The translations under genes and the position numbers were made by a program. Below the pieces are notes generated by a model. It had not been told where the DNA came from. It saw nothing but the letters and a program-made list of their open reading frames with translations, and searched no databases. Positions 9,153 through 34,683 of a DNA stretch of 64,000 nt are shown here, in pieces. Origin of the DNA: Escherichia coli (GTDB lineage Bacteria; Pseudomonadota; Gammaproteobacteria; Enterobacterales; Enterobacteriaceae); NCBI RefSeq assembly GCF_013122565.1, contig NZ_CP053258.1. One strand, given 5' to 3'. Positions within the stretch are counted from its first letter, which is position 1. Every line of letters begins with the position of its first letter.

Positions 9153-9186
9153 ACTATAGACTTCACTTTTTTAGGAGAAATATATT

Positions 9187-9693: not shown

Positions 9694-9711
9694 TTCTTTA
9701 GAGGAGGAATT

Positions 9712-10602
9712 ATGTTTAGACACGTGAAAAAACTTCAATATACAGTACGTGTAAGTGAACCAAACCCAGGCTTAGCTAATCTACTTTTAGAACAATTCGG
9801 CGGCCCACAGGGTGAGCTTGCAGCTGCATGCCGATACTTCACTCAAGGTTTAAGTGATGAAGATGCAGGTCGAAGGGATATGCTGATGGACATAGCAACA
9901 GAAGAACTAAGCCATCTCGAAATTATTGGTTCTCTTGTTGGTATGCTCAACAAAGGTGCAAAAGGAGCACTCGCTGAAGGAACTGAGAATGAAGCGGAGC
10001 TTTACCGTTCCTTAACTCAAAATGGCAATGACAGCCATATAACTTCTCTTCTCTACGGAGGAGGCCCAGCATTAACTAATTCAGCTGGAGTACCCTGGAC
10101 TGCAGCTTATGTTGATACTATTGGCGAAGTCACAGCCGATCTTCGTTCAAATATTGCAGCTGAAGCTCGTGCAAAGATCATTTACGAGCGTCTCATTAAT
10201 GTTACTGATGATCCTGGAGTGAAAGACACTCTGGCATTTTTAATGACCAGGGAAGCAGCACATATGCTTTCTTTTGAAAAAGCATTACATTCAATTCGTA
10301 ACACTTTTCCACCAGGAAAATTACCACCGATTGAGAAGTACAAAAACGTATATTACAACATGTCAGAAGGTGAAGATGTCAGAGGTAGTTGGAACAGTGA
10401 TGAAAACTTTGATTATGTTTCCGATCCAGTTCCAGCTGTTGACGGTGGGGATGGGAAGGCCTCGATAATTCTTTCGACCAAGCAAGAAGCTATGATAAAA
10501 GCTATGGCAACAAGGTTGAAATCCCATGAAGATATCAATCCTGTCACTGGCGCTGAGCTTGCTGAAGGAGAGCCACAAACAAAGGTAAATAGTAAAAACT
10601 AA
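9712..10602 (+). CDS. Manganese (non-haem) catalase, KatN-like
   Basis: 296 aa, ferritin-like di-metal fold with EELSHLEIIG and REAAH motifs typical of Mn catalases; fourth gene of a yciGFE-katN-type arrangement (known from Salmonella). Confidence 0.8.
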   Translation: MFRHVKKLQYTVRVSEPNPGLANLLLEQFGGPQGELAAACRYFTQGLSDEDAGRRDMLMDIATEELSHLEIIGSLVGMLNKGAKGALAEGTENEAELYRSLTQNGNDSHITSLLYGGGPALTNSAGVPWTAAYVDTIGEVTADLRSNIAAEARAKIIYERLINVTDDPGVKDTLAFLMTREAAHMLSFEKALHSIRNTFPPGKLPPIEKYKNVYYNMSEGEDVRGSWNSDENFDYVSDPVPAVDGGDGKASIILSTKQEAMIKAMATRLKSHEDINPVTGAELAEGEPQTKVNSKN

Positions 10603-10692
10603 TTATCTTCTGGTATTTAGCTATCTCTCATAAATTTTAATGGCCGCAGAGATATCCTAAGCTCTAGCCACTGAAAATACATTTATATTTCG

Positions 10693-10727
10693 AAGCCCGC
10701 GATATTATAAGCGGGCTTTTATTTTAA
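10693..10727 (+). terminator. Rho-independent terminator after the Mn-catalase gene
   Basis: AAGCCCGC-gatattataa-GCGGGCTT followed by TTATTTT. Confidence 0.6.
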
Positions 10728-11050
10728 CCTTCTGGTATTACAGGCCACTCAATATCCGGTGCTACTGATGGCTCAACACGATTCAACAACATCCGATATG
10801 TCTTCCATGCGGCCATTCAACATTTCGCAGAAATGCAACTAAGAGACATTACTGAATCAAAAATTTATTCAGCAATGCAGAAAATGACGAACCGGCGTCA
10901 TGAGGAAAACTGGAAACTCAGGGCAGAAGCATGCAGAAAAAAGGGAAACCTGTTCCAGAATACACGCCAAACCCAGCGTCTGTTGCAACGAAGGCTACGC
11001 ATCTTTCATTTATAAAAGCCCTGCTAAGAGCCGCAGAGCGTGAATAGAAA

Positions 11051-11718
11051 ATGCTGGATAAGGCACCAATTATTAAAGTGCCTCAACCGAAGAATAAACG
11101 GATCCGCTGGCTGGAACCTCATGAAGCACAAAGGCTGATTGATGAATGTCCGGATCCATTAAAGTCTGTTGTTGAATTTGCACTGGCAACAGGTTTAAGA
11201 CGCTCGAACATCATCAACCTTGAATGGCAACAAATAGACATGCAGCGCCGGGTGGCCTGGATAAACCCGGAAGAGAGTAAATCAAACTGCGCGATTTGCG
11301 TTGCGCTGAATGATACTGCATGTCGAGTATTGAAAAAACAAATCGGGAATCACACCGTTGGGTATTTGTGTAAAAGGAAAGCTGTACAAAACCAGACGGA
11401 ACGAAAGCGCCAACAGTCAGGAAGATGCAGTATGACGCAAACACAGCCAGGAAAACGGCGCTGAGACGAGCTGGTATTGATGATTTCAGATTTCACGACT
11501 TGAGACACACCTGGGCAAGTTGGCTGGTTCAAGCCGGAGTCCCGTTGTCAGTGTTACAGGAAATGGGAGGCTGGGAGTCTATCGAAATGGTTCGACAATA
11601 TGCTCACCTCGCACCTAATCACCTTACCGAACACGCACGGCAAATAGACTCGATCCTAAACCCATCGGTCCCAAATTTGTCCCAGTCAAAAAATAAGGAA
11701 GGTACTAACGATGTGTAA
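11051..11718 (+). pseudogene. Tyrosine-recombinase (phage integrase) remnant: catalytic C-terminal half only, with a frameshift near 11425-11464
   Basis: Two overlapping frames (11051..11464 and 11425..11718) together give an integrase catalytic domain ([19 protein letters not shown]...; [39 protein letters not shown]); N-terminal ~200 aa absent; ends 15 bp from the tRNA 3' end in convergent orientation. Confidence 0.7.
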
Positions 11719-11732: not shown

Positions 11733-11808
11733 TGGTGCCGATAAGAGGAGTCGAACCTCCGACCTTCGCATTACGAATGCGCTGCTCTACCAACTGAGCT
11801 ATATCGGC
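11733..11808 (-). tRNA. thrW: tRNA-Thr (anticodon CGU)
   Basis: Minus-strand sequence GCCGATATAGCTCAGTTGGTAGAGCAGCGCATTCGTAATGCGAAGGTCGGAGGTTCGACTCCTCTTATCGGCACCA folds as a canonical cloverleaf with CGT anticodon and CCA end. Confidence 0.95.
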
Positions 11809-11922: not shown

Positions 11923-13176
11923 TTACGCACGAATGGTGTAATCACCAATGCCGATCCACTTGTAAGTGGTCAGTGCTTCCAGCCCCATTGGGCCACGCGC
12001 GTGGAGTTTTTGTGTGCTTACCGCCACTTCCGCACCCAGACCAAACTGGCCGCCGTCGGTAAAACGCGTAGAGGCGTTAACGTAAACAGCGGACGAATCC
12101 ACTTCGTTAACAAAACGCTGGGCGTTGCGCATATCGCGGGTCAGGATCGCATCGGAGTGTTGTGTGCCGTGTTCACGAATATGGGCGATGGCATCGTCAA
12201 GATCGCTGACGATTTTGACGTTCAAATCTAATGACAGAAACTCATCGTCATACTCTTCGGCTTTAACCGCCACCACCTTCGCGGGGCCTGTCTGCAACTG
12301 CGCCAGCGCAGCAGCATCTGCGTGTAACGTCACGCCGCTTTCCGCCATTTGCTTGCTTAATGCGGGCAGGAAGCTATCGGCGATGTTTTTATTTACCAGC
12401 AACGTTTCTACCGTATTACATGTGCTCGGACGCTGAGTTTTCGCGTTGACGATCACTTTTAATGCTTCAGCGATCTCTGCACTTTCATCAACGTAAATAT
12501 GGCATACGCCTATACCACCAGTGATCACCGGGATTGTCGACTGTTCGCGGCACAGTTTATGCAAACCAGCGCCACCACGCGGGATCAGCATGTCGATGTA
12601 TTTATCCATACGCAGCATTTCACTGACCAGCGCACGGTCAGGATTATCAATCGCCTGCACGGCACCCGCCGGTAAGCCACAGGATTTCAGGGCGTCCTGA
12701 ATCACCGCCACCGTTGCCGCGTTAGTGCGACAGGTTTCTTTGCCACCACGCAGGATCACCGCATTACCGGTTTTCAGGCACAGCGAAGCGACATCAACCG
12801 TCACGTTCGGGCGCGCTTCATAAATCACGCCAATAACCCCCAGCGGTACGCGACGACGCTCAAGACGCAGGCCGCTGTCCAGTACGCCGCCATCGATTAC
12901 CTGCCCCACCGGATCGGCGAGATTGCACACCTGGCGCACATCGTCGGCAATGCCTTTCAGCCGTGCGGGCGTCAGTGCCAGACGGTCAAGCATCGCTTCG
13001 CTAAGGCCATTGGCACGCGCGTCAGCAACATCCTGGGCGTTAGCGTTGAGGATGATTTCGCTTTGTGCTTCCAGTTCATCGGCGATTTTTTCCAGCACGC
13101 GATTTTTTTCGCGGCTGGAGAGTTGCGCTAATTTATACGAGGCTTGCTTCGCGGCAATGCCCATTTGTTCCAGCAT
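11923..13176 (-). CDS. proA: Gamma-glutamyl phosphate reductase
   Basis: 417 aa full-length match to ProA by recollection ([38 protein letters not shown]...); 11-bp spacing from proB. Confidence 0.95.
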
Positions 13177-17467: not shown

Positions 17468-17926
17468 TTAGCGACCGGAGATTGGCGGGACGAATACGAC
17501 GCCCATATCCCACGGCTGTTCGATCCAGGTATCTTGTGGGATATCAACAACATAATCATCAACCAGCGGACGACCAGCCGGTTTTGCGAAGATGGTGACA
17601 AAGTGCGCTTTTGGATACATTTCGCGGATTGCCACTGCAGTACCACCGGTATCCACCAGGTCATCAATTACGATGAAGCCTTCGCCATCGCCTTCTGCGC
17701 GTTTCAGCACTTTAAGCTCGCGCTGGTTGTCGTGATCGTAGCTGGAAATACAAACGGTATCGACATGACGAATACCCAGTTCACGCGCCAGTAACGCACC
17801 CGGTACCAGACCGCCACGGCTTACGGCAATAATGCCTTTCCATTGTTCAGAAGGCATCAGTCGGCTTGCGAGTTTACGTGCATGGATCTGCAACATGTCC
17901 CAGGTGACGATGTATTTTTCGCTCAT
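17468..17926 (-). CDS. gpt: Xanthine-guanine phosphoribosyltransferase
   Basis: 152 aa, [39 protein letters not shown].... Confidence 0.95.
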
Positions 17927-19700: not shown

Positions 19701-20315
19701 TTATCCTTCGATAAAAGCCATCCCTGTAAATGTCCGTCGCGGGTTGCCACGTTCAATCTGGTGATGGAACATTCGCCGCTGCGATTTCAGCACCGCGCTA
19801 TTCTCCTGTTGCTGTTGTTCCAGCTTCCAGGCAATCAGCAATCGCGCCAGCCGTTTGTTAGCATGCTGGCTGCGCTCTGACTGAACCTTCACGCTAATAC
19901 CGGATGCCAGATGCGTGGCACGTACCGCCGAGTCGGTTTTATTGACATGTTGACCGCCCGGCCCCGACGAACGCAGCGTCTCATACCGGATCGCATCGGA
20001 TTGCCCCTGCTCATCAGCGGTAAAACGCCCAATGCCCAGAAACCAGTTTTTACGCCCGTGATGTGGGCGATACGGGCTCGGGCAAATCCACTGAATAGTG
20101 CCACACCAGCTTTCGCTTAACGCCCATGCGTTGTCGCCATCCAGAGAAATCAGCGCCGAACGCAGCGTGTCAGAGTAGCGGCCTGTTTCTGTTTCCAGCA
20201 CCGTTACCGCGACGTCTTGTCGGGCAGTTTCTTTAATTAGCCTGTCCAGCGCCTTTTTCACTGCGAGACAACATTCTTCCGGCCCCTGCGCTGAGGAGAG
20301 TTGTAGCAAGATCAT
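19701..20315 (-). CDS. prfH: Peptide chain release factor homologue PrfH (apparently full length, ~204 aa)
   Basis: Starts [19 protein letters not shown]...; contains GGQ motif ([17 protein letters not shown]); ATG overlaps the stop of the upstream RtcB-like gene (ATGA). ORF-track start at 20399 is an upstream extension. Confidence 0.85.
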
Positions 20316-21463
20316 CCTTTTTTCCCTCCACTGTTTTTGAGCGTTAGCACCGGACGCAGTCGCGCGACAGGAATAATTAACCCAGCCTGCACCAGACATT
20401 GCACCACGCTTTCAGCCGATTTATAAGCTTGTGGCGCTTCTTCAAAGATGAGTTGTTTATCGCGACAAATTACCCGGCTGCCAAGTTCAGTACGCGAGAG
20501 TTGCGTCACCGTGTATTTCGCTGCCAGACGCCCTTTACAATCGGTGCGCCCCCATTTACGCCCAGCCCCATGCGCCAGCGAATGCAATGTTTCCTCACTC
20601 CTGACGGGCTGAACCAGCCAGGAGTAATCACCGCGTGAACCGGGAATAACCACCAGACCACAGTCATCAGGCGTGGCACCTTTACGATGTAAGACCCCTT
20701 GTTGATCACCGATTCGACACGCGCTAACAAAGTTATGCGCCACATCCAGAACCGGACTTCCGGTGGCCTTAACCTGTTGCATTATGCGCAAAGCGATCAG
20801 CTGGCGATTAATACGCGCAAACGCCAGCGCATCGTCATGTTCCGCAATATAACGTAGCGCGTCGTCACTGCCTTCAGGCAAACCATGATGCGAAAACGAG
20901 GCAATATGCCGCTGTAAAATAGACTGCCCTAAACCACGCGAGCCGCTATGAACCAACAGTTGCAGATGCTGCGCATCCAGACCTGCCAGTGCAAACAGTT
21001 CAGCGTTGATGATTTGATCAACTTGTTGCAGTTCAGCGAAATGATTGCCGCCACCGATAGAGCCAAGCGAGCTGCGCCACGGATGCTGTGCAAATGCTGA
21101 CGGCAGGTTTTCCTCCAGCCAGCTTTCTTCAGCAACGTCATCCAAAGCTGATAATCGCTTTTCAAACTTATCGGCGTTGTATTTGCGAGCGAGAATATCT
21201 GTTTGCCATAGCGCCATGCCGCAGCCGATATCATTGCCGACCAGTGCCGGGTAAAAACGACCAACTGAGAAGAACGCTGCGCCAATCGGGTAGCCGCGTC
21301 CGGGATGTAAATCTGGCATCCCCACTACGCGCTGCATGTTGGGTAAATTTGCCGTGGTGTGTAATTGTTGGATCGCTAAACTCTCGATCCACAGGTCATC
21401 AGATGCGATGGTAAATACCGCATCGGATAAGGGACGAATATATTTGCCCATGTACCATTCCAT
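20312..21463 (-). CDS. RtcB-family RNA ligase paralogue (RtcB2-like), partner of PrfH
   Basis: 383 aa with RtcB hallmarks ([36 protein letters not shown]...HRKGA); translationally coupled to prfH. Confidence 0.85.
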
Positions 21464-21768
21464 TTATACTCGTCATACTTCAAGTTGCATGTACTGCGAC
21501 TGCGTTCGTTCACCCCAGTCACTTACTTTAGTAAGCTCCTGGCGATTCACTCGCTTGTCACCTTCCTGCAACTCGAATTATTTAGAGTATATAAATATTA
21601 AAAATCAGGAAATGGCAGACGAATCCAGGGCAAGAAAAAAGAATTAATCCTGGAAAGGTCTGCAAAGAGTCATTGATAAAGGATTTGTCATGATTTACCT
21701 CCTTGCAGTTTGTGGAATCAGAAAACGCGCACATACTAGGCGGGCGTTATTTTCATTGCAAGCTGGAT

Positions 21769-22221
21769 TTAATGTTGCGGTTTATATCGCATATAAAAAT
21801 TAGTAAACCACGCACCCCGGCATTCAACGCGCTGCTGCTTAACTGTCTGAAAACCATAACGTTCAAAAAAGGGTTTTGCGGTTATGCTGGCGTCCACCGT
21901 AAGTTCGGATTCAGACTTAATCCAAGGTTTTAACAAAGCACTGGCAACCCCACGGCGGGTGTATTCAGGGTCAACAAATAACATATCGATATAATGTTCA
22001 ATGCGGGAAATAAAACCAACCGGTTGTGCATTAATGACTGCAACCCGCACTTGTGATTTCGCGAGTTTCTCCTTCCAGCGAGATTCGTCAATCTGCGCCC
22101 AGACTGCAATTTGTTGTGGTGAATAATGCTCACTGGCTGTCATCGTAACCGCTCTAATGAAAATAGCGCATAGTTGCTGAAAATCGCCAGGCTGATAGTT
22201 TCTTATTTGTATGTTATTCAT
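21769..22221 (-). CDS. yafP: GNAT-family acetyltransferase YafP
   Basis: 150 aa, [25 protein letters not shown]...; start overlaps dinB stop by 4 nt. Confidence 0.9.
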
Positions 22222-23273
22222 AATCCCAGCACCAGTTGTCTTTCCATTTGAGGGTCAAGCAACGTCACATGCAGCCCCACCAGTCGCACACCGCGCCCGC
22301 CGCGGCGTTCATCCCAGGTTTTACGCGCGGTGGCGATTAGATCAGCTTTATTCAGCCGCGGCCAGACGTGCTCCTGGGTGGTTTGCTGAAAATCGTCGAA
22401 CTTTAATTTCACCCCCTGGCGAGCAATCAGTAAATCAGGTTTTACCTTTGCCAGACGGCGTTCAAGTTCCGGATACAGCCGCTCGATAATCGCTTCACAT
22501 TCAGACCAGTGATGAATATCTTCCGCCATCGTGCGTTCCACGCCGACGGATTTTCGCAACCGTTCGCTGTTAACATCGCGTTCGTCAATCCCCTGACTAC
22601 GCTCCCACAAAATGCGGCCAAATTTGCCAAAACGTTTAAGCAACGTCACCAGATCACACTTTTGTACATCACCGCAGGTCCGCAGCCCCATCGCTTCCAG
22701 TTTTGCCGCCGAGACTTTGCCGACGCCGGGGATTTTTGCCAGTGGTAAGGTTTGTAAAAATGCCGGAACTTCTGCCGGCGTAATCACAAACTGGCCGTTG
22801 GGTTTATTCATGTCGGAGGCGATTTTGGCGAGAAACTTTACTGGTGCCACGCCCGCAGACGCCGTCAGTTGCAGCTCGCTGAAAATCGTCTGGCGGATTT
22901 CCTGGGCGATGAGGGTCGCAGAACCGTGGCAATGGACGCTATCGGTGACATCGAGATAAGCCTCATCCAGTGACAACGGTTCAATACGCGAGGTGTAACG
23001 CGAGAAGATTTCACGGATATGATTTGAGGCTTCTTTGTAGGCGTCAAAGCGCCCCGGAAGCAAGGTGAGATGTGGGCATAATTTGAGCGCCATCCCAGTA
23101 GGCATAGCGCTACGTACGCCAAATTTACGCGCGGGATAATTGGCGGTGCTGATCACCCCCCGACGTTCGCGGCTGCCGCCAATAGCAATAGGGATATCGC
23201 GCAGGGCGGGATTGTCGCGCATCTCCACTGCGGCGAAAAAGCAGTCCATATCCACATGAATGATTTTACGCAT
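22218..23273 (-). CDS. dinB: DNA polymerase IV (Y-family translesion polymerase)
   Basis: 351 aa, [34 protein letters not shown].... Confidence 0.95.
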
Positions 23274-23289
23274 TGCTCACCTCTCAATA

Positions 23290-23305
23290 CTGGTAAAGTA
23301 TACAG
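23290..23305. promoter_or_regulatory. LexA (SOS) box in the dinB promoter
   Basis: CTGGTAAAGTATACAG (CTG-N10-CAG) about 17 bp upstream of the dinB start. Confidence 0.75.
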
Positions 23306-23343
23306 TGATTTCAGGGTTTGAGAAATGCGTAAAGATTCAGCAT

Positions 23344-23979
23344 TTAACGCGTTCGCTGCGAAAGCACCTGCTGCTTATCCAGCTTTTGCACCAGTGGCTG
23401 CACCACTTTATCCCCATGCTGACCAAAGTATTGATACAGCGTATCGGACGCACTTTTGGTCAGCACCATAATCTCAATACGCCGATTGCCCGCACTTTGC
23501 GGATTTTTCGCGTCCAGCAGCATCTGGTCCGCCATTGCGCTTACCTGCATCACTTTATCTTCCGGCATTCCTGCCTCTTCCAACACCCGACGAGCCGAAA
23601 GCGCGCGGTCACCCGAAAGGTTCCAGTTGTTGTAGATATTGTTTTTGTAAGCCATCGCATCGGTATGCCCGGTAATAATAATTTTGTTATCGAGCGAGTC
23701 GAACACTGGCGCGAGCTCCACCAGCAAAGTTTTAAAGAACGGCATAATCTGCGCGCTGCCGCGTTCGAACATATTGCGGTTCTGGTCGTCTTTAATCAGC
23801 ACGCGTAATCCCTGCGGGACAATCTCCATCTCCAGATTCGCTTCCATATGCGCATCACGGGCAATGGTGTTGATACTGGTTGCCAGCTCGCCAAGCTCGG
23901 TGGCGGATTTCTTCTTCAGCAGCGCCGTATTCTCGTTGACGTCGCGCGCTTTTTTCTCCGTCTCTTCCGGCACCGCCAC
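23344..23979 (-). pseudogene. lafU: lafU' remnant: MotB-like flagellar motor protein with OmpA-like C-terminal domain, 5'-truncated (Flag-2 deletion scar); upstream boundary approximate
   Basis: C-terminal OmpA/MotB peptidoglycan-binding domain (ITGHTDAMAYKNNIYNNWNLSGDRALSARRVLEEAGM...NRRIEIMVL); N-terminal part of the 296-aa ORF lacks a MotB-like TM segment. Confidence 0.65.
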
Positions 23980-24073
23980 GGTGGCAGGTTTTGGCGGATG
24001 AGACGGGCTGATTTTATTTAACGGCGACAACCCGCCACCATTGAAAATCGACTGCCCGTGCAGCGCGGCGATA

Positions 24074-25813
24074 ATGCTTTCACGCTCGGATTTACTGACG
24101 CTGTTGACAATCAACTTTATTGTCGTCACCAAAGGGGCCGAGCGTATTTCCGAGGTTTCCGCCCGCTTTACCCTGGACGCGATGCCCGGCAAACAGATGG
24201 CGATTGACGCCGACCTTAACGCCGGGTTGATCAACCAGGCGCAGGCGCAAACCCGGCGTAAAGATGTTGCCAGCGAGGCCGATTTCTACGGCGCGATGGA
24301 CGGGGCATCGAAGTTTGTGCGCGGGGACGCCATCGCCGGGATGATGATTCTGGCGATCAACCTGATCGGCGGCGTCTGTATCGGCATCTTCAAATACAAC
24401 CTGAGCGCCGACGCTGCCTTCCAGCAGTATGTGCTGATGACCATCGGCGACGGCCTGGTGGCGCAGATCCCTTCCCTGCTGCTCTCCACCGCGGCCGCGA
24501 TTATCGTCACCCGCGTCAGCGATAACGGCGATATCGCCCATGACGTGCGCCACCAGCTGCTGGCAAGCCCGTCGGTGCTCTACACCGCCACCGGGATCAT
24601 GTTCGTGCTGGCGGTGGTGCCGGGGATGCCGCATCTGCCGTTTTTGCTGTTCAGCGCCCTGCTTGGCTTTACCAGCTGGCGGATGAGCAAACGCCCGCAG
24701 GCGGCGGAGGCGGAAGAGAAAAGCCTCGAAACGCTGACCCGCACTATCACCGAAACCAGCGAGCAACAGGTCAGTTGGGAAACCATTCCACTGATCGAGC
24801 CCATCAGCTTAAGCCTTGGCTACAAGCTGGTGGCGCTGGTGGACAAAGCACAGGGTAACCCGCTCACCCAACGTATTCGCGGCGTGCGGCAGGTGATTTC
24901 TGACGGCAACGGCGTGCTGCTGCCGGAGATCCGCATTCGGGAAAACTTCCGCCTTAAGCCGAGCCAGTACGCCATTTTCATCAACGGCATTAAGGCTGAT
25001 GAAGCAGATATTCCGGCGGATAAACTGATGGCCCTGCCCTCCAGCGAAACCTACGGCGAGATTGACGGCGTGCTGGGGAACGACCCGGCGTACGGGATGC
25101 CGGTGACCTGGATCCAGCCCGCGCAGAAAGCGAAGGCGCTGAATATGGGGTATCAGGTAATCGACAGCGCCAGCGTGATTGCCACCCATGTGAACAAGAT
25201 TGTGCGCAGCTATATTCCTGATTTATTTAATTATGATGACATCACGCAGTTGCATAACCGTTTGTCGTCGATGGCACCGCGCCTGGCGGAGGATTTAAGC
25301 GCGGCGCTCAATTACAGCCAGTTGCTGAAAGTGTACCGGGCGCTGCTGACCGAAGGCGTTTCCCTGCGCGATATTGTCACCATCGCCACCGTGCTGGTCG
25401 CCAGTAGCACAGTGACCAAAGATCATATTCTGCTGGCGGCCGATGTGCGCCTGGCGCTGCGGCGCAGCATTACCCATTCGTTCGTTCGCAAGCAGGAGCT
25501 GGCGGTGTATACGCTGAATAATGAGCTGGAAAATCTGCTGACCAACGTGGTGAATCAGGCGCAACAGGGCGGCAAAGTGATGCTCGACAGCGTGCCGGTG
25601 GACCCGAATATGCTCAACCAGTTCCAGAGTACGATGCCGCAGGTAAAAGAGCAGATGAAAGCGGCGGGGAAAGACCCGGTGCTGCTGGTGCCGCCGCAGT
25701 TGCGCCCTTTGCTGGCGCGCTACGCAAGGTTGTTTGCGCCGGGGCTGCATGTGCTGTCGTATAACGAAGTGCCGGATGAGCTTGAGTTGAAGATTATGGG
25801 GGCGTTGAGTTGA
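24074..25813 (+). pseudogene. lfhA: lfhA' remnant: FlhA-like flagellar export protein lacking about 120 N-terminal residues (Flag-2 deletion scar)
   Basis: Homology to FlhA begins mid-protein (IVVTKGAERISEVSARFTLDAMPGKQMAIDADLNAGLI...); divergently oriented and overlapping the lafU' ORF. Confidence 0.7.
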
Positions 25814-25849
25814 TGGCTTTTAAGAAACGCAATACGATGACATCAATTT

Positions 25850-26248
25850 ATGACGTCAGGGATTGATAAGATGATGAAAACGCGTTCATTAATATCTCAA
25901 GCATCGAACATTATCACAATTAAAGGTCAACCAGCCGCAGTGACATTTGAAGCCGATATCAACGCATTTCGCGGCAAGTTCCTCAATGTAAACGGTTATT
26001 GTGACTTTGTAGCCACAAGTATTGAGGCATTATATCGTGAAGGCGAAAGCGCGCTGGATGAGTGGATGGCGGATTGTGAAGAGGACGGTATTGCCCCTTT
26101 TCGTGAAGAAGAAGAGCAAAAACGCCTGACGCTTCGTGTTCCTCATCACATTGATTCGCGGCTGACCATCGTCGCCAGACAACATTCCATTTCAAAAAAC
26201 CAGCTCATTATTGATGTCTTAGAACGTGAGTTTTCAGCCCAGATGTAA
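25850..26248 (+). CDS. HicB-like antitoxin-type protein with C-terminal ribbon-helix-helix DNA-binding domain (orphan; no hicA seen)
   Basis: 132 aa; N-terminal HicB-like segment (AAVTFEADINAFRGKFLNVNGYCDFVATSIEALYREGESALDEWMADCEEDGIAPF), C-terminal RHH-like KRLTLRVPHHIDSRLTIVARQHSISKNQLIIDVLEREF. Confidence 0.45.
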   Translation: MTSGIDKMMKTRSLISQASNIITIKGQPAAVTFEADINAFRGKFLNVNGYCDFVATSIEALYREGESALDEWMADCEEDGIAPFREEEEQKRLTLRVPHHIDSRLTIVARQHSISKNQLIIDVLEREFSAQM

Positions 26249-26250
26249 AC

Positions 26251-26282
26251 AGGTCGGATGCCGCGTGGCATCCGACCTTTTG
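26251..26282. terminator. Rho-independent terminator / REP-like hairpin between the HicB-like gene and yafL
   Basis: AGGTCGGATGCC-gcgt-GGCATCCGACCT followed by TTTT. Confidence 0.6.
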
Positions 26283-26304
26283 CCAGTTCGTCAATATTAC
26301 CCAT

Positions 26305-27054
26305 TTACAAAATCGTCTCTTCCGTCAAAATCCGCCGCGCGCCTAAAAAATGATCCTGCCAGAAAGGTTCAGCTAATCGGCTTATCCGAATGGTTTCGCC
26401 GGTACGTGGTGACTCGATAAACTGACCGTCTCCCAGATACACCCCCATATGATCGGCTATCTCGCGGCTGTGAATATGGAAAAACAGCAAATCTCCCCGG
26501 CGCAGGTCGTTATTCGCCACAATCGTTGCCCGACGGTAGTGATACATCTCATTAGCCGTGCGCGGGAGTTTCGCCTCGAGGATCTTGTTGTAGGCATAAA
26601 AAACCAACCCGCTACAGTCGAAGCCTTGATCGGGCCGTGTGCCGCCCCAGACGTAAGGCTTGCCAAGCTGCTGCTCCAGGCGGTGGATCGCCACTTCGGT
26701 GATGTTATGCAGGTGATCGCTGCTTAAAAAGTGGTTGTTTTCCGCCAGCGCCTGCCAGCGTCTGTCACTCGCCTTGAGCGGTGCAGGAAACCATTCTGGA
26801 TGCTGTTTTATCTGCTCCCGGTTGTGCTGGCGCAGCGCCCTTCTGCTTTCGGCATTGCCTTCCACAATATAGCTGGCCTGTTTTTTCAGATGGGTTTGGT
26901 ACTGTTTTAATAACCGCGCACGGTTTTGCATCCGCTGGCGGGCGGCGTAGCTGAAAGAGATGTGTGATGTGGTGGCGCTGGCAAATGAAGAAAACGGCAA
27001 GCAAAGCAACAGTAATCCCGACAACACAAAGGATGGAATCGACGGCAAGGACAT
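26305..27054 (-). CDS. yafL: NlpC/P60-family peptidoglycan endopeptidase lipoprotein YafL
   Basis: 249 aa from MSLPSIPSFVLSGLLLLCLPF...; NlpC/P60 motifs (GFDCSGLVFYAY, H...GVYLGDGQFIESP). Confidence 0.9.
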   Translation of the reverse strand: MSLPSIPSFVLSGLLLLCLPFSSFASATTSHISFSYAARQRMQNRARLLKQYQTHLKKQASYIVEGNAESRRALRQHNREQIKQHPEWFPAPLKASDRRWQALAENNHFLSSDHLHNITEVAIHRLEQQLGKPYVWGGTRPDQGFDCSGLVFYAYNKILEAKLPRTANEMYHYRRATIVANNDLRRGDLLFFHIHSREIADHMGVYLGDGQFIESPRTGETIRISRLAEPFWQDHFLGARRILTEETIL

Positions 27055-27231
27055 ACTCAATAATGGCTGGTCATGCTTTAATGTTGCAGTGTATCCCGGA
27101 TCGTTTCTGAACAAACTTAATAAACCATTATTATAAAATTAACAGATATATTTCAGTGGATTATGTAAATACATCAGTTTATTAAATTGCTCATGAATTG
27201 CCGCTGTTGCTCAATTGAGCTACAATTCAAG

Positions 27232-27247
27232 CTGAATATATATACAG
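27232..27247. promoter_or_regulatory. LexA (SOS) box upstream of dinJ-yafQ
   Basis: CTGAATATATATACAG, a near-consensus CTG-N10-CAG box about 17 bp upstream of the dinJ ATG. Confidence 0.8.
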
Positions 27248-27263
27248 CACAGGAGATACCCCA

Positions 27264-27524
27264 ATGGCTGCTAACGCATTTGTTCGCGCCCGAATCGATG
27301 AGGATTTGAAGAATCAGGCGGCGGACGTACTGGCCGGGATGGGGCTGACCATCTCTGACCTGGTTCGCATAACCCTCACAAAGGTCGCGCGTGAAAAGGC
27401 ATTGCCGTTTGATTTACGCGAGCCTAATCAATTAACTATTCAATCAATCAAAAACAGCGAAGCTGGCGTTGGTGTTCATAAGGCCAAAGACGCCGATGAT
27501 TTATTTGATAAATTAGGAATTTAA
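27264..27524 (+). CDS. dinJ: Antitoxin DinJ (RHH family)
   Basis: 86 aa, MAANAFVRARIDEDLKNQAADVLAGMGLTISDLVRITL.... Confidence 0.95.
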   Translation: MAANAFVRARIDEDLKNQAADVLAGMGLTISDLVRITLTKVAREKALPFDLREPNQLTIQSIKNSEAGVGVHKAKDADDLFDKLGI

Positions 27525-27526
27525 AT

Positions 27527-27805
27527 ATGATTCAAAGGGATATTGAATACTCGGGACAATTTTCAAAGGATGTAAAACTTGCACAAAAGCGTCATAAGGA
27601 TATGAATAAATTGAAATATCTTATGACGCTTCTTATCAATAATACTTTACCGCTTCCAGCTGTTTATAAAGACCACCCGCTGCAAGGTTCATGGAAAGGT
27701 TATCGCGATGCTCATGTCGAACCGGACTGGATCCTGATTTACAAACTTACCGATAAACTTTTACGATTTGAGAGAACTGGAACTCACGCGGCGCTCTTTG
27801 GGTAA
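27527..27805 (+). CDS. yafQ: Toxin YafQ (RelE-family ribosome-dependent mRNA interferase)
   Basis: 92 aa, MIQRDIEYSGQFSKDVKLAQKRHKDMNKLKYLM...; 2-nt spacing after dinJ. Confidence 0.95.
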   Translation: MIQRDIEYSGQFSKDVKLAQKRHKDMNKLKYLMTLLINNTLPLPAVYKDHPLQGSWKGYRDAHVEPDWILIYKLTDKLLRFERTGTHAALFG

Positions 27806-27960
27806 AGCCCGCTTCCGATGAAATTTGTAAACCCTGCGCCGACAGGCTTGCGTAAAACTCTTTTGGTGATAATGTGAGCCTTCCAAATCCAGACTATTCC
27901 GATTTGGGATCTATTTTGCCGTCCTGGCGTGTGTAACCGTTTTATCAAGGAATAAGCAGT

Positions 27961-28701
27961 ATGCGTAAAATCGCATTAATTCTTGCGATGTTGTTGATCC
28001 CGTGCGTTTCGTTTGCCGGTTTGCTGGGCAGCAGTAGCTCGACCACGCCAGTGAGCAAAGAGTATAAGCAGCAGTTGATGGGATCCCCTGTCTACATCCA
28101 GATCTTCAAGGAAGAACGTACGCTCGATCTCTACGTCAAAATGGGCGAGCAATATCAACTGCTCGACAGCTATAAAATCTGTAAATATTCCGGCGGCTTA
28201 GGGCCAAAACAGCGTCAGGGCGATTTCAAAAGCCCGGAAGGGTTTTATAGCGTCCAGCGTAATCAGTTAAAACCAGACAGCCGTTACTACAAAGCGATTA
28301 ATATTGGTTTCCCCAATGCCTATGACCGTGCGCATGGTTATGAAGGGAAATACCTGATGATCCACGGCGATTGTGTTTCCATCGGCTGCTACGCGATGAC
28401 CAATCAGGGTATTGATGAGATCTTCCAGTTCGTTACTGGTGCGCTGGTGTTTGGTCAGTCAAGTGTGCAGGTGAGTATTTACCCGTTCCGCATGACCGAC
28501 GCCAACATGCAGCGCCATAAATATTCCAACTTTAAGGACTTCTGGGAGCAACTGAAGCCGGGTTATGACTACTTTGAGCAAACCCGTAAGCCACCGACCG
28601 TTTCTGTGGTCAATGGTCGTTACGTGGTCAGCAAGCCGTTAAGCCACGAAGTTGTGCAGCCACAACTGGCATCAAACTACACGCTCCCCGAGGCAAAATA
28701 A
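27961..28701 (+). CDS. yafK: L,D-transpeptidase-like periplasmic protein YafK
   Basis: 246 aa with signal peptide; YkuD-like domain ([21 protein letters not shown]). Confidence 0.9.
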
Positions 28702-29439
28702 GCGCCATTCGCCTGGCATAATCTTTTGCCAGGTTTCATTGCCCGTCAGCGGCTGTGTCGCAATCACCGTGACCACATCATTCGGTGTGGTCTGCGAGCT
28801 GAAGTCGATTTCCACATCCTGATCCAGCAACGTTGCCACGCCAAACGGTGCGCGGCGGGTGATCCAGTGCAGATTGGTCGAGCAATACGCCATTACATAG
28901 CGCCCATCCGAAAGCAGCATGTTGAAAACGCCCTTCTGCCGCAGTTCGTCCGCCAGTGAAGCGATATATTTAAACACTGCTGCCATGTTGCCCGGCGTGC
29001 GCGGGTAACGCTGCGTTAATTTATGCAGCAGCCAGCAGAAGGCTTTTTCGCTGTCGGTTTCACCGACCGGGCGGAAGTTGCCGGTTTCCAGTGATTTGTA
29101 GCCCGTCAGTTGTCCGTTATGGGCATAAGTCCAGTTACGCCCCCATAACTCGCGGGTAAATGGGTGAGTATTTTCCAGCGCCACCTCGCCCCGATTAGCC
29201 TGGCGAATATGAGCCACCACCGAACAGGATTTTATCGGGTAGTCCTGGACAAGTTTGGCGATGGGGGAATTAAAGCTGGGTTGTGGATCTTTAAATGTGC
29301 GACAGCCTTTACCTTCGTAAAAGGTAATGCCCCAGCCATCTTTATGTGGCCCGGTTCCACCACCACGCTGTACAAGTCCGGTGAAACTAAAGCAGATATC
29401 GGTAGGGACGTTGGCGCTCATCCCGAGCAATTCGCACAT
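28672..29439 (-). CDS. yafJ: Class II glutamine amidotransferase-like protein YafJ
   Basis: 255 aa starting [19 protein letters not shown] (N-terminal Cys nucleophile); 3' ends of yafK and yafJ overlap convergently by 30 nt. Confidence 0.9.
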
Positions 29440-29501
29440 GGGTAACCTCCACAACAGCGGGAGCGCATGGCCCCCGGCGAAGATTGATTTAAGAATTTTC
29501 A

Positions 29502-29637
29502 GGTCGGATGCGGCGTGAACGCATTATTCGGCCTTCGGTTCGCGTACAGATTTGTAGGCATGATAAGACGCGTCAGCGTCGCATCAGGCATCAGCGCACA
29601 AATGCTGGATGCGGCGTAAACGCCTTATCCGGCCTAC
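29502..29637. repeat. REP/BIME cluster (repetitive extragenic palindromes) between yafJ and gmhA
   Basis: Three REP-like units: GGTCGGATGCGGCGTGAACGC..., inverted CGTCAGCGTCGCATCAGGCA, and GCTGGATGCGGCGTAAACGCCTTATCCGGCCTAC. Confidence 0.8.
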
Positions 29638-29644
29638 GCCAGAC

Positions 29645-30223
29645 TTACTTAACCATCTCTTTTTCAATTAACTGGATCAGGATATGGATCACTTTAATGT
29701 GGATCTCCTGAATGCGGTCGGCATAACCAAAGTGCGGAACGCGAATTTCGATATCCGCCGTGCCAGCCATTTTGCCGCCGTCTTTACCGGTCAGGGTGAT
29801 CACTTTCATCCCCTTCTCACGCGCCGCTGCGATCGCTTTGATCACGTTTGCAGAGTTACCGGAAGTGGAGATCCCCAGCAGTACATCGCCTTCGCGACCT
29901 ACCGCTTCAACGTAACGGGAGAAAATATCATTGAAACCGAAATCATTACCGACGCAGGAAATATGACTAACGTCAGAAATAGCAATCGCCGGGTAGCCCG
30001 GACGGTTTTCACGGTAGCGACCGGTCAACTCTTCGGCAAAGTGCATGGCGTCGCAATGGGAGCCGCCGTTGCCGCAGGAAAGCACTTTACCACCGGCTTT
30101 AAAGCTGTCTGCTAACAGGACCGCCGCGCGCTGAATGGCGTGAATATTGGCGTCATCTTTTAAAAAGTTAGCCAGCGTTTCCGCCGCTTCGTTCAGTTCG
30201 TTACGAATAAGATCCTGGTACAT
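29645..30223 (-). CDS. gmhA: Phosphoheptose (sedoheptulose-7-phosphate) isomerase
   Basis: 192 aa from [21 protein letters not shown]...; SIS domain. ORF-track start is an upstream extension. Confidence 0.95.
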
Positions 30224-30462
30224 GAGGATATCCTTCAGCATAAATGTAATAGACAAAATGCAGTGTACCGGATACCGCCAAAAGCGAGAAGTACGGGCAG
30301 GTGCTATGACCAGGACTTTTTGACCTGAAGTGCGGATAAAAACAGCAACAATGTGAGCTTTGTTGTAATTATATTGTAAACACATTGCTAAATGTTTTTA
30401 CATCCACTACAACCATATCATCACAAGTGGTCAGACCTCCTACAAGTAAGGGGCTTTTCGTT

Positions 30463-32907
30463 ATGATGATTTTGAGTATTCTCGCTACGGTTGTCCTGCT
30501 CGGCGCGTTGTTCTATCACCGCGTGAGCTTATTTATCAGCAGTCTGATTTTGCTCGCCTGGACAGCCGCCCTCGGCGTTGCTGGTCTGTGGTCGGCGTGG
30601 GTACTGGTGCCTCTGGCCATTATCCTCGTGCCATTTAACTTTGCGCCTATGCGTAAGTCGATGATTTCCGCGCCGGTATTTCGCGGTTTCCGTAAGGTGA
30701 TGCCGCCGATGTCGCGCACTGAGAAAGAAGCGATTGATGCGGGCACCACCTGGTGGGAGGGCGACTTGTTCCAGGGCAAGCCGGACTGGAAAAAGCTGCA
30801 TAACTATCCGCAGCCGCGCCTGACGGCTGAAGAGCAAGCGTTTCTCGACGGCCCGGTAGAAGAAGCCTGCCGGATGGCGAATGATTTCCAGATCACCCAT
30901 GAACTGGCGGATCTGCCGCCAGAGTTGTGGGCGTACCTTAAAGAGCATCGCTTCTTCGCGATGATCATCAAAAAAGAGTACGGCGGACTGGAGTTCTCGG
31001 CTTATGCCCAGTCTCGTGTGCTGCAAAAACTCTCCGGCGTGAGCGGGATCCTGGCGATTACCGTCGGCGTGCCGAACTCATTAGGCCCGGGCGAGCTACT
31101 GCAACATTACGGCACTGATGAGCAGAAAAATCACTATCTGCCGCGTCTGGCGCGTGGTCAGGAGATCCCTTGCTTTGCACTGACCAGCCCGGAAGCGGGT
31201 TCCGATGCGGGCGCGATTCCGGACAACGGGATTGTCTGCATGGGTGAATGGCAGGGCCAGCAGGTGCTGGGGATGCGTCTGACCTGGAACAAACGCTACA
31301 TTACGCTGGCACCGATTGCGACTGTGCTTGGGCTGGCGTTTAAACTCTCCGACCCGGAAAAATTGCTGGGTGGTGCAGAAGATTTAGGTATTACCTGTGC
31401 GCTGATCCCGACCACCACGCCGGGCGTGGAAATTGGTCGTCGCCACTTCCCGCTGAATGTGCCGTTCCAGAACGGACCGACGCGCGGTAAAGATGTCTTC
31501 GTACCGATCGACTACATTATCGGCGGGCCGAAAATGGCCGGGCAAGGCTGGCGGATGCTGGTGGAGTGCCTCTCGGTGGGCCGCGGCATCACCCTGCCTT
31601 CCAACTCAACCGGCGGCGTGAAATCGGTAGCGCTGGCAACCGGCGCGTATGCGCACATTCGCCGTCAGTTCAAAATCTCTATTGGTAAGATGGAAGGGAT
31701 TGAAGAACCGCTGGCGCGTATTGCCGGTAATGCCTATGTGATGGATGCTGCGGCGTCGCTGATTACCTACGGCATTATGCTCGGCGAAAAACCTGCCGTG
31801 CTGTCGGCTATCGTTAAGTATCACTGTACCCACCGCGGGCAGCAGTCGATTATTGATGCGATGGATATCACTGGTGGTAAAGGCATTATGCTCGGGCAAA
31901 GCAACTTCCTGGCCCGTGCTTACCAGGGCGCACCGATTGCCATCACCGTTGAAGGGGCTAACATTCTGACCCGCAGCATGATGATCTTCGGCCAGGGGGC
32001 GATTCGTTGCCATCCGTACGTGCTGGAAGAGATGGAAGCGGCGAAGAACAATGACGTCAACGCGTTCGATAAACTGTTGTTCAAACATATCGGTCACGTC
32101 GGTAGCAACAAAGTTCGCAGCTTCTGGCTGGGCCTGACGCGCGGTTTAACCAGCAGCACGCCAACCGGCGATGCCACTAAACGCTACTATCAGCACCTGA
32201 ACCGCCTGAGCGCCAACCTCGCCCTGCTTTCTGATGTCTCGATGGCAGTGCTGGGCGGCAGCCTGAAACGTCGTGAGCGTATCTCGGCACGTCTGGGTGA
32301 TATTTTAAGCCAGCTTTACCTCGCCTCTGCCGTTCTGAAGCGTTATGACGACGAAGGCCGTAATGAAGCCGATCTGCCGCTGGTGCACTGGGGCGTACAG
32401 GATGCGCTGTATCAGGCAGAACAGGCGATGGACGATTTACTGCAAAACTTCCCGAACCGCGTGGTTGCCGGGCTGCTGAATGTGGTGATCTTCCCGACCG
32501 GACGTCATTATCTGGCACCGTCTGACAAGCTGGATCATAAAGTGGCGAAGATTTTACAAGTGCCGAATGCCACCCGTTCACGTATTGGTCGCGGTCAGTA
32601 CCTGACGCCAAGCGAGCATAACCCGGTTGGTTTACTGGAAGAGGCGCTGGTGGATGTAATTGCCGCCGACCCAATTCATCAGCGGATCTGTAAAGAGCTG
32701 GGTAAAAACCTGCCGTTTACCCGTCTGGATGAACTGGCGCACAACGCGCTGGCGAAGGGGCTGATTGATAAAGATGAAGCCGCTATTCTGGTGAAAGCTG
32801 AAGAAAGCCGTCTGCGCAGTATTAACGTTGATGACTTTGATCCGGAAGAGCTGGCGACGAAGCCGGTAAAGTTGCCGGAGAAAGTGCGGAAAGTTGAAGC
32901 CGCGTAA
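30463..32907 (+). CDS. fadE: Acyl-CoA dehydrogenase FadE
   Basis: 814 aa from [24 protein letters not shown]...; N-terminal membrane segment and ACAD domains. Confidence 0.95.
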
Positions 32908-32913
32908 TTGAAT

Positions 32914-32940
32914 AACGGAGCCGAAAGGCTCCGTTTCTTT
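32914..32940. terminator. Bidirectional Rho-independent terminator between fadE and ivy
   Basis: AACGGAGCC-gaaa-GGCTCCGTT followed by TCTTT. Confidence 0.65.
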
Positions 32941-32949
32941 ATCGGCTAA

Positions 32950-33423
32950 TTATTTAAAATTAAAGCCATCCGGATGGTTTTCCAGGCTGCCGGTCAACGC
33001 CGCGAACAGCACCGTTTTACCATCAATCGAAAGCGCATCGTTCACATTCAACCAGGTGAGTTTCTCTTGCGACGTTTTCTCATCAATAGTCGAGAACAGC
33101 CCCGTCATCTGATTAGATTTCTCGGACCACATCACAGCGATACGTTGCGAGCCACAGTCATGCGGTTTGCACGCGCTCATCACCTGATACGTCTCATCTC
33201 CCAACGTTACGGTTTGTGCGGGAGTATAAGTACCGCCTTTCATCACCCAGGCAGGCAGCTTATGCCCTTGCACCATCTGATTAAACGCAGCTTTGGTGGT
33301 TTCGCCCTTTGCAAGGCTGCTAATGGTTAAATCATCCTGCGCCATTGCACTGGTGGCGATGACCAGAGCGGCGACTGTCGTTATTGCCTTAAACATCATT
33401 CCTCCCGGGCTTATCCTGCCCAT
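32950..33423 (-). CDS. ivy: Periplasmic inhibitor of vertebrate C-type lysozyme
   Basis: 157 aa with signal peptide; SACKPHDCGSQRIAV... Ivy loop motif region. Confidence 0.9.
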   Translation of the reverse strand: MGRISPGGMMFKAITTVAALVIATSAMAQDDLTISSLAKGETTKAAFNQMVQGHKLPAWVMKGGTYTPAQTVTLGDETYQVMSACKPHDCGSQRIAVMWSEKSNQMTGLFSTIDEKTSQEKLTWLNVNDALSIDGKTVLFAALTGSLENHPDGFNFK

Positions 33424-34449: not shown

Positions 34450-34683
34450 GTGGGTTATCTGCCCAACCGCAGCGACACGCCGGTGATCAAAATCAGCGCC
34501 AAATGGCTGAGAGAAGCGGGATTTGCGATCGGCACGGGCGTTACCGTGAGGATCTCGGAAGGCTGCCTGATCCTGCTTGCGGATAACAACGAAGTACAGG
34601 AACTGCGCAGGGAACTTTATCAGGTTAAACAGTCAGTTAAGGGGATGCGTGACGGGATGTTTAGTGTGCTGAACGAGAGTTAA
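34450..34683 (+). CDS. SymE-like (AbrB/SpoVT-fold) toxin-family protein, short form (77 aa, GTG start); possibly an N-terminally shortened remnant
   Basis: PVIKISAKWLREAGFAIGTGVTVRISEGCLILLADN resembles the core of K-12 SymE ([34 protein letters not shown], from memory); followed by an imperfect hairpin at 34690-34725. Confidence 0.5.
   Translation: MGYLPNRSDTPVIKISAKWLREAGFAIGTGVTVRISEGCLILLADNNEVQELRRELYQVKQSVKGMRDGMFSVLNES

What the first reader, a model, noticed from the sequence alone, without database searches (positions are those of the whole stretch)
23290..27247. Two near-consensus LexA boxes frame the dinB to dinJ interval
CTGGTAAAGTATACAG upstream of dinB and CTGAATATATATACAG upstream of dinJ-yafQ place both a translesion polymerase operon and a RelE-type toxin-antitoxin under predicted SOS control; I found no comparable box upstream of the SymE-like ORF at 34450.
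Basis: partly seen in the sequence, partly recalled or inferred. Interest (0 to 1): 0.25.

Follow-up and report, generated by a model that had tools for sequence, protein, structure and literature searches.

The report
Known LexA operators of dinB and dinJ
The two sequences are real and are the already well-studied binding sites for the DNA-damage repressor LexA in front of the E. coli genes dinB and dinJ, so this is ordinary, textbook biology.

Summary
They are the two best LexA-type sites in the 64-kb window. With a heterology-index (HI) matrix built from 17 published K-12 boxes, dinJ scores 6.3 and dinB 8.6. The next best site scores 10.4 and lies inside the gpt coding sequence.

The locus is the E. 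coli dinB...dinJ region, inverted relative to K-12. dinB-yafP runs leftwards from 23273 and dinJ-yafQ runs rightwards from 27264. The boxes therefore sit at the inner ends of two outward-facing operons. Nothing between them (lafU', lfhA', a HicB-like ORF, yafL) is predicted to be SOS-controlled.

Both boxes align base for base with the K-12 dinB (dinP) and dinJ operators. Each differs from K-12 at one position, and each change moves the site towards the consensus. Both variants also occur in other E. coli genomes.

The dinB box contains the predicted -10 hexamer. The dinJ box lies just downstream of the predicted -10, next to the DinJ palindrome.

SOS control of dinB is established. For dinJ-yafQ, LexA binding is reported, but DNA-damage induction was not seen in K-12, and a lexA deletion gives only 2-3-fold derepression. 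The "near-consensus" label fits dinJ (15/16) but not dinB (11/16). The SymE-family ORF does lack a LexA box.

Verdict: already known, low interest.

The parts
23288..23307 (-). dinB (dinP) LexA box, 20-mer CACTGTATACTTTACCAGTA (core CTGTATACTTTACCAG at 23290-23305)
   Evidence: Exact match. HI 8.6, rank 2 in the window. The core is identical to K-12, and the last flank base is A where K-12 has G. It ends 14 nt before the dinB ATG.
23297..23324 (-). Predicted dinB sigma-70 promoter: -35 TTCTCA, 16-nt spacer, -10 TATACT. The -10 lies inside the LexA box.
   Evidence: Consensus scan: 2 promoter-like sites found in that stretch (this is one of them) against 0.1 expected. This is a prediction only.
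22218..23273 (-). dinB, DNA polymerase IV (351 aa)
   Evidence: NCBIfam NF002677 at 546.7 bits. Pfam IMS, IMS_C and IMS_HHH. Annotated as dinB in matching genomes.
21769..22221 (-). yafP, GNAT acetyltransferase. Its start overlaps the dinB stop. No yafN-yafO lies between them.
   Evidence: NF007338 at 322.7 bits. Same arrangement in strain WG5. The contiguous junction is present in 2569 of 5414 E. coli genomes.
27230..27249 (+). dinJ LexA box, 20-mer AGCTGAATATATATACAGCA (core CTGAATATATATACAG at 27232-27247)
   Evidence: Exact match. HI 6.3-6.4, rank 1 in the window. 15 of 16 to the core consensus. It differs from K-12 (AGCTGAATAAATATACAGCA) by one A-to-T change in the spacer. It ends 14 nt before the dinJ ATG.
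27198..27226 (+). Predicted dinJ sigma-70 promoter: -35 TTGCCG, 17-nt spacer, -10 TACAAT
   Evidence: Consensus scan. This is a prediction only.
27205..27224 (+). Inverted repeat TGTTGCTCAA/TTGAGCTACA (perfect core GCTCAATTGAGC) between the -35 and -10. It is the presumed DinJ autorepression operator.
   Evidence: Inverted repeat I2. K-12 has GCTCATTTGAGC. A palindrome overlapping the promoter elements is the reported DinJ binding site (PMC6529426).
27264..27524 (+). dinJ, RelB/DinJ-family antitoxin (86 aa)
   Evidence: Pfam RelB at 116.4 bits and TIGR02384 at 83.6 bits.
27527..27805 (+). yafQ, RelE-superfamily mRNA interferase toxin (92 aa)
   Evidence: Pfam YafQ_toxin at 110.6 bits and TIGR00053 at 120.9 bits.
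23344..27114 (.). The interval between the boxes: lafU remnant (23344-24234, -), N-terminally truncated lfhA/FlhA (24041-25813, +), HicB-family ORF (25850-26248, +) and yafL NlpC/P60 peptidase (26305-27114, -). None has a LexA-like site.
   Evidence: No site with HI below 13 falls inside this interval.

Best explanation
These are the orthologues of two long-known E. coli LexA (SOS) operators. They sit in front of two operons that point away from each other.

At dinB, a LexA dimer bound to CACTGTATACTTTACCAGTA covers the predicted -10 hexamer TATACT and blocks RNA polymerase. After DNA damage, RecA-stimulated self-cleavage of LexA frees the promoter, and dinB-yafP (here without yafN-yafO) is transcribed.

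At dinJ, the box AGCTGAATATATATACAGCA lies 4 nt downstream of the predicted -10 and across the likely transcription start. It adjoins the palindrome where the DinJ antitoxin represses its own operon. LexA is therefore a second and weaker layer of repression on top of DinJ autorepression. Damage-induced expression of dinJ-yafQ is expected to be small.

Shown here: the sequences, their rank in the window, their orthology to the K-12 sites, their geometry and the gene identities. Taken from K-12 literature: LexA binding and the regulatory outcome.
For: - **Presence:** exact matches at the stated coordinates.
- **Rank:** top two HI scores in the window, well separated from the background and from the null.
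- **Orthology:** base-for-base alignment with the K-12 dinB and dinJ upstream regions. The dinB box sequence is listed among UV-induced SOS boxes in PMC3009722 Table 4.
- **Geometry:** the -10 lies inside the dinB box, and the dinJ box lies just after the -10 beside an inverted repeat. Both boxes end 14 nt before the ATG. Salmonella dinP and dinJ boxes sit at about the same distances, 15 and 14 bp (PMC8072944).
- **Gene identities:**
- **dinB literature:** the dinB operon is LexA-regulated and induced by mitomycin C and ciprofloxacin (PMC2814082; PMC11002266).
- **dinJ literature:** LexA binds the dinJ promoter (PMC4996492), and dinJ-lacZ rises 2-3-fold in a lexA deletion (PMC6015884).
Against: - LexA is not encoded in the window, and binding in this strain is inferred.
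- For dinJ-yafQ, several sources state that SOS induction was not observed in K-12 (PMC1891008; PMC4996492).
- dinJ is not named in the text of the UV tiling-array study.
- The Salmonella dinJ induction (7.8-fold, PMC8072944) may come from RtcR/sigma-54 read-through rather than from LexA (PMC9879122).
- The promoter hexamers are consensus predictions, not mapped transcription starts.
Confidence: 0.9

Rival explanations
1. One reading: the dinJ box makes dinJ-yafQ a truly DNA-damage-inducible toxin-antitoxin operon in this strain. The window allele (core 15/16 to consensus, HI 6.3 against 7.1 for K-12) would bind LexA more tightly than the K-12 allele does.
For: The window box is one step closer to consensus than K-12. 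LexA binds the K-12 site, and a lexA deletion gives 2-3-fold derepression. PMC2814082 counts dinJ-yafQ among SOS-induced mRNA interferases.
Against: Induction by DNA damage was not seen in K-12. The adjacent DinJ palindrome is also improved in this allele, to a perfect GCTCAATTGAGC, so autorepression would still mask LexA release. A difference of 0.7 HI units is small.
Confidence: 0.3
2. The dinJ box is a conserved sequence with little or no role through LexA. It could be a relic operator, or a site used mainly by another protein. DnaA has been proposed to act at an overlapping box.
For: SOS induction is not detected in K-12. PMC6015884 reports independent repression of dinJ by DnaA, with a DnaA box overlapping the LexA box.
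Against: The CTG/CAG invariants and a fully A/T spacer are kept in both E. coli alleles and in Escherichia sp. MOD1-EC7003. The site is the best LexA-type match in 64 kb. LexA binding and lexA-dependent repression are reported.
Confidence: 0.1
3. The two matches are chance palindromes in AT-rich intergenic DNA.
For: The bare CTG-N10-CAG frame is common: 23 in the window against 13.3 expected. A site with HI at or below 9 appears in 9% of random 64-kb sequences.
Against: There are two such sites. Each lies 14 nt upstream of a gene whose K-12 orthologue has a documented LexA box of the same sequence. No other site in the window scores below 10.4.
Confidence: 0.01

Closest known systems
E. coli K-12 dinB (dinP) LexA operator, CACTGTATACTTTACCAGTG
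   Same: Identical 16-nt core, the same position 14 nt before the dinB ATG, and the same flanking lafU'-dinB intergenic sequence (2 differences in 241 bp).
   Different: The last base of the 20-mer is A instead of G, which matches the consensus TACTG(TA)5CAGTA. This allele is also found in E. coli RM10410. The downstream operon is dinB-yafP, not dinB-yafN-yafO-yafP.
E. coli K-12 dinJ-yafQ operator region (LexA box AGCTGAATAAATATACAGCA plus DinJ palindrome)
   Same: Same genes, same order, same promoter layout and same distance to the ATG. 19 of 20 box positions are identical.
   Different: The spacer reads ATATAT where K-12 has AAATAT, which is closer to consensus. The DinJ palindrome is perfect (GCTCAATTGAGC, against GCTCATTTGAGC in K-12). 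This haplotype is the minority one in E. coli, seen for example in strains D8 and 2013C-4991. By identity band, about 85 records carry it and about 2934 carry the K-12-like form.
Salmonella Typhimurium dinP and dinJ SOS boxes (PMC8072944)
   Same: The boxes lie 15 and 14 bp from the ATG, with HI 6.8 and 8.3. Both genes are up-regulated by nalidixic acid.
   Different: Salmonella dinJ-yafQ sits downstream of the rsr-rtcBA RNA-repair operon and can be transcribed from its sigma-54 promoter (PMC9879122). The genomic context is therefore different.
symE-symR (K-12), an SOS-induced type I toxin
   Same: The window ORF 34450-34683 is a SymE-family protein (Pfam PF08845, 44.7 bits against a cut-off of 29).
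   Different: It has no LexA box (best HI 17.4, against 8.0 for K-12 symE). It scores below the NCBIfam SymE equivalog cut-off (41 against 132 bits). It lies at the edge of an Rhs/T6SS island rather than in the hsd-mcr region.

Membership tests
E. coli-type LexA (SOS) box, TACTG(TA)5CAGTA | Invariant CTG and CAG triplets separated by 10 nt | tested here: met
   Both sites keep CTG-N10-CAG with no mismatch.
E. coli-type LexA (SOS) box, TACTG(TA)5CAGTA | A/T-rich spacer and a heterology index in the range of functional boxes. An HI below about 15 is the cut-off quoted in PMC11002266. | tested here: met
   dinJ scores HI 6.3 with a 10/10 A/T spacer. dinB scores HI 8.6 with an 8/10 A/T spacer. The matrix came from 17 published boxes with dinB held out, and those training sites score 0.3-9.4. 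These values come from my own matrix and are not the published HI values.
E. coli-type LexA (SOS) box, TACTG(TA)5CAGTA | Overlaps or adjoins the core promoter or transcription start of the regulated gene | tested here: met
   The dinB box contains the predicted -10 TATACT. The dinJ box starts 4 nt after the predicted -10 TACAAT. The promoters are predicted, not mapped.
E. coli-type LexA (SOS) box, TACTG(TA)5CAGTA | Binds LexA | not testable with these tools
   Inferred from orthology to K-12 sites. LexA binding at the dinJ promoter is reported in PMC4996492 (citing Ruangprasert 2014). dinB is a standard SOS gene (PMC3009722, PMC2814082).
SOS regulon membership (LexA-dependent, DNA-damage-inducible transcription) | The transcript rises after DNA damage in a LexA-dependent way | not testable with these tools
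   For K-12 dinB the literature says yes. For K-12 dinJ-yafQ, induction was not observed, and a lexA deletion gives only 2-3-fold derepression.
[quoted passage not shown] | A RelB/DinJ antitoxin gene immediately upstream of a YafQ/RelE-fold toxin gene in one operon | tested here: met
   DinJ matches Pfam RelB at 116 bits. YafQ matches Pfam YafQ_toxin at 111 bits and TIGR00053 at 121 bits, above its cut-off of 87. The two genes are 2 nt apart.
[quoted passage not shown] | A palindromic autorepression operator overlapping the promoter | tested here: met
   A 10+10 nt inverted repeat at 27205-27224 lies between the predicted -35 and -10. A binding site of this kind is described in PMC6529426.
dinB-yafN-yafO-yafP operon (K-12 form) | The yafN-yafO toxin-antitoxin pair lies between dinB and yafP | tested here: not met
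   The dinB stop overlaps the yafP start at 22218-22221. The same form occurs in WG5 and in 2569 of 5414 genomes.
SymE type I toxin under LexA control | A LexA box at the symE promoter | tested here: not met
   The best HI within 450 bp upstream of 34450 is 17.4. The K-12 symE control gives 8.0.

The most novel reading that the evidence does not exclude
This lineage carries a minority dinJ operator haplotype. Its LexA box is one step closer to consensus, and its DinJ palindrome is perfect. If the stronger LexA site makes LexA repression limiting rather than DinJ autorepression, dinJ-yafQ could be measurably SOS-inducible in strains with this allele even though it is not in K-12. That would be natural allelic variation in whether a RelE-type toxin belongs to the SOS regulon.
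Probability: 0.15. Interest if true: 0.3.

Novelty: already known. Interest (0 to 1): 0.07.

Why it matters
It matters little beyond correct annotation. The result confirms that a simple HI scan recovers the two expected SOS operators in this window and nothing else.

It also records strain-level facts that affect how K-12 knowledge transfers:
- The dinB operon here lacks yafN-yafO.
- dinJ-yafQ is present in only about 55% of complete E. coli genomes.
- Both boxes are minor alleles slightly closer to consensus.

The one open biological point is whether LexA binding at dinJ has any physiological consequence. That is an old question, and this sequence does not make it more tractable.

Tried and rejected
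1. **Bare CTG-N10-CAG search.** Too unspecific: 23 hits against 13 expected. Replaced by the HI matrix.
2. **First HI scan.** I cut the 25-mers one base out of register. Redone in the correct register, with the same ranking.
3. **Strict consensus search.** The 20-mer consensus with up to 3 mismatches finds nothing. The 16-mer consensus with up to 3 mismatches finds only dinJ. The dinB box is not 'near-consensus' by mismatch count.
4. **Scan of 100,044 species-representative genomes for AGCTGAATAWATATACAGCA.** Only one relevant hit, Escherichia sp. MOD1-EC7003, which carries the K-12 allele, plus three unrelated MAG hits. It did not identify the source of the window and gave no cross-genus conservation data.
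5. **Primary papers.** Ruangprasert 2014, Wade 2005 and Armalyte 2012 are not held. Their results are cited only through papers that quote them.
6. **Third-best site, 17740-17759 (HI 10.4).** Rejected: it lies inside the gpt CDS and has CGG in place of CAG. The gpt position was worked out from the and coordinates.
7. **Conservation as evidence of selection.** The five-sequence alignment has one variable column in the 20-nt box and roughly 10% variable columns in the rest of the upstream region. That is too few sequences and differences to be significant, so it is not used as evidence.
8. **Salmonella dinJ induction as support for LexA control.** Set aside because of the sigma-54/RtcR read-through route.
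Full report
**Observation.** CTGGTAAAGTATACAG is at 23290-23305 and CTGAATATATATACAG is at 27232-27247. Both keep the CTG-N10-CAG frame. That frame alone is weak evidence, because the window has 23 such 16-mers against 13.3 expected.

**Locus.** A megablast of 21500-29000 against 5,426 complete E. coli genomes hits essentially all of them. The annotation of strain WG5 and of K-12 MG1655 shows that the window carries the dinB...dinJ region, inverted relative to K-12. The genes are:

| Coordinates | Strand | Gene |
|---|---|---|
| 21769-22221 | - | yafP |
| 22218-23273 | - | dinB |
| 23344-24234 | - | lafU remnant |
| 24041-25813 | + | N-terminally truncated lfhA/FlhA |
| 25850-26248 | + | HicB-family ORF (K-12 has rayT here) |
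| 26305-27114 | - | yafL |
| 27264-27524 | + | dinJ |
| 27527-27805 | + | yafQ |
| 27961-28701 | + | dpaA/yafK |

Profile searches confirm the key identities. DinB matches NF002677 at 547 bits. YafP matches NF007338 at 323 bits. DinJ matches Pfam RelB at 116 bits. YafQ matches Pfam YafQ_toxin at 111 bits.

The two operons point away from each other. The boxes sit at their inner ends, and the 3.9 kb 'framed' by them is not itself downstream of either box.

I took 17 published K-12 SOS boxes from Table 4 of PMC3009722 and left dinB out. From them I built a Berg-von Hippel heterology-index (HI) matrix and scored every 20-mer on both strands (one search was one base out of register). Results:
- The matrix consensus is TACTGTATATATATACAGTA.
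- The training sites score 0.3-9.4.
- The dinJ site (27230-27249, AGCTGAATATATATACAGCA) scores 6.3-6.4 and ranks first.
- The dinB site (23288-23307 minus strand, CACTGTATACTTTACCAGTA) scores 8.6 and ranks second.
- The next site (17740-17759, HI 10.4) has CGG in place of CAG and lies inside the gpt coding sequence.
- Everything else scores 11.5 or higher.
- In 200 first-order Markov sequences of 64 kb, the best HI averaged 11.4 (sd 1.7), and 9% had any site at or below 9.

By plain mismatch count, dinJ matches 15 of 16 core positions. It is the only match in the window with 3 or fewer mismatches. dinB matches 11 of 16. 'Near-consensus' is therefore accurate for dinJ only.

**Orthology.** Alignments with K-12 and other strains show that both boxes are the K-12 operators.
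- **dinB.** The 16-nt core is identical to K-12. The last base of the 20-mer is A instead of G, which lowers HI from 11.8 to 8.6 in my matrix. The same allele is in E. coli RM10410. The 241-bp dinB promoter region is present in 5,415 of 5,426 genomes.
- **dinJ.** The box differs from K-12 by one spacer base (ATATAT against AAATAT), with HI 6.3 against 7.1. This allele is linked to a perfect GCTCAATTGAGC palindrome, where K-12 has GCTCATTTGAGC. The haplotype is found in E. coli D8 and 2013C-4991.
- **Distribution of dinJ.** The dinJ promoter region is found in only 3,012 of 5,426 genomes. Of the matching records, 85 fall in the 95-99% identity band (window-like) and 2,934 in the 90-95% band (K-12-like).

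**Anatomy.** Consensus scans place a dinB promoter with -35 TTCTCA, a 16-nt spacer and -10 TATACT, and the -10 lies inside the LexA box. They place a dinJ promoter with -35 TTGCCG, a 17-nt spacer and -10 TACAAT. The LexA box starts 4 nt after that -10, and a 10+10-nt inverted repeat (27205-27224) lies between the hexamers. Both boxes end 14 nt before the start codon. Salmonella dinP and dinJ show about the same spacing, 15 and 14 bp (PMC8072944). The promoters are predictions.

**Mechanism.** At dinB, LexA occludes the -10. RecA-stimulated LexA cleavage derepresses dinB-yafP. Induction of dinB by UV, mitomycin C and ciprofloxacin is documented (PMC3009722, PMC2814082, PMC11002266).

At dinJ, the situation is known to be more equivocal:
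- The box was predicted in 1994 (cited in PMC1891008).
- LexA binds the promoter (Ruangprasert 2014, as cited in PMC4996492).
- dinJ-lacZ rises 2-3-fold in a lexA deletion (PMC6015884).
- dinJ is not named in the text of the UV tiling-array study.

DinJ, or the DinJ-YafQ complex, represses the operon at the palindrome (PMC6529426). I therefore read LexA as a secondary repressor layered on DinJ autorepression. The Salmonella dinJ induction (7.8-fold) is not clean support, because there dinJ-yafQ can be read through from the sigma-54/RtcR-dependent RNA-repair operon (PMC9879122).

**The SymE remark.** ORF 34450-34683 is a SymE-family protein (Pfam PF08845, 44.7 bits against a cut-off of 29). It falls below the NCBIfam SymE equivalog cut-off, and RefSeq annotates its counterparts as 'SymE family type I addiction module toxin'. 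The best LexA-like score within 450 bp upstream is 17.4. The same matrix finds the K-12 symE box at HI 8.0.

**Differences from K-12 worth recording.**
- The dinB operon here is dinB-yafP. The dinB stop overlaps the yafP start, and there is no yafN-yafO pair.
- This contiguous junction occurs in 2,569 of 5,414 genomes, so it is a common polymorphism.
- The SOS-induced YafNO module described for K-12 (PMC2814082) is therefore absent. dinJ-yafQ is the only type II toxin-antitoxin pair in the window with a LexA box.

**Novelty and score.** Both boxes, their genes and their regulation are already described. The only new details are single-base allelic variants that also occur in other sequenced E. 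coli. The finding is correct but ordinary. The residual novel reading is that the stronger dinJ allele confers real SOS inducibility. It is possible but unsupported (probability about 0.15).

Noticed in passing
window 21769-23273: The dinB stop overlaps the yafP start, and yafN-yafO is absent. The contiguous dinB-yafP junction is present in 2,569 of 5,414 complete E. coli genomes. The rest carry an insertion there, as K-12 does.
   Followed up: yes
window 27120-27330: The dinJ promoter region is present in only 3,012 of 5,426 complete E. coli genomes. There are two haplotypes. The window-type (T-variant LexA box plus perfect GCTCAATTGAGC palindrome) is the minority form, at about 85 records against about 2,934 by identity band.
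   Followed up: partly
window 25850-26248 (+): A HicB-family antitoxin-like ORF (Pfam HicB, 40 bits) sits where K-12 has rayT. No HicA-like partner ORF is visible next to it.
   Followed up: partly
window 19701-21463 (-): An RtcB-family ligase gene (383 aa, NF007153 at 638 bits) and a PrfH-like RF-1-domain gene (232-aa ORF) appear intact. In K-12 the corresponding ykfJ/prfH are pseudogenes.
   Followed up: partly
window 23344-25813: The lafU and N-terminally truncated lfhA (FlhA-like) fragments are the remnant ends of the lateral-flagella (Flag-2) cluster. E. coli D8 carries an intact fliP-fliQ-fliR-flhB-flhA block at this position instead.
   Followed up: partly
window 34450-34683 (+): A SymE-family ORF lies at the edge of the Rhs island next to yafV. 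Its only canonical start is GTG. By eye, the in-frame upstream extension back to a stop at 34390 continues SymE-like sequence but contains no ATG, GTG or TTG. It has no LexA box.
   Followed up: partly
window 35170-63524: An Rhs/type VI secretion island. It contains orphan Rhs C-terminal toxin ORFs (LHH nuclease, Tox-SHH), a full prePAAR-PAAR-Rhs protein with a deaminase C-terminus (43871-48010), VgrG (48498-50711) and IcmF/TssM (56026-59892). A truncated second VgrG copy (52033-52794) lies within a 300-nt direct repeat at 93% identity.
   Followed up: partly
window 17740-17759: The third-best LexA-like 20-mer is AGCTGGAAATACAAACGGTA (HI 10.4). It lies inside the gpt coding sequence and has CGG in place of CAG, so it is judged a chance match.
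   Followed up: yes
whole window: Core genes (dpaA to ivy, 27900-33400) are at best 98.4% identical to any of 5,426 complete E. coli genomes. The source is an Escherichia lineage not represented in that set. It was not identified further.
   Followed up: partly
window 11733-11808 (-): tRNA-Thr(CGT), i.e. thrW, lies next to the 417-aa ORF at 11923-13176, which I take to be proA. The sequence to its left (1-11700) is therefore the thrW-associated island position. It was not examined.
   Followed up: no
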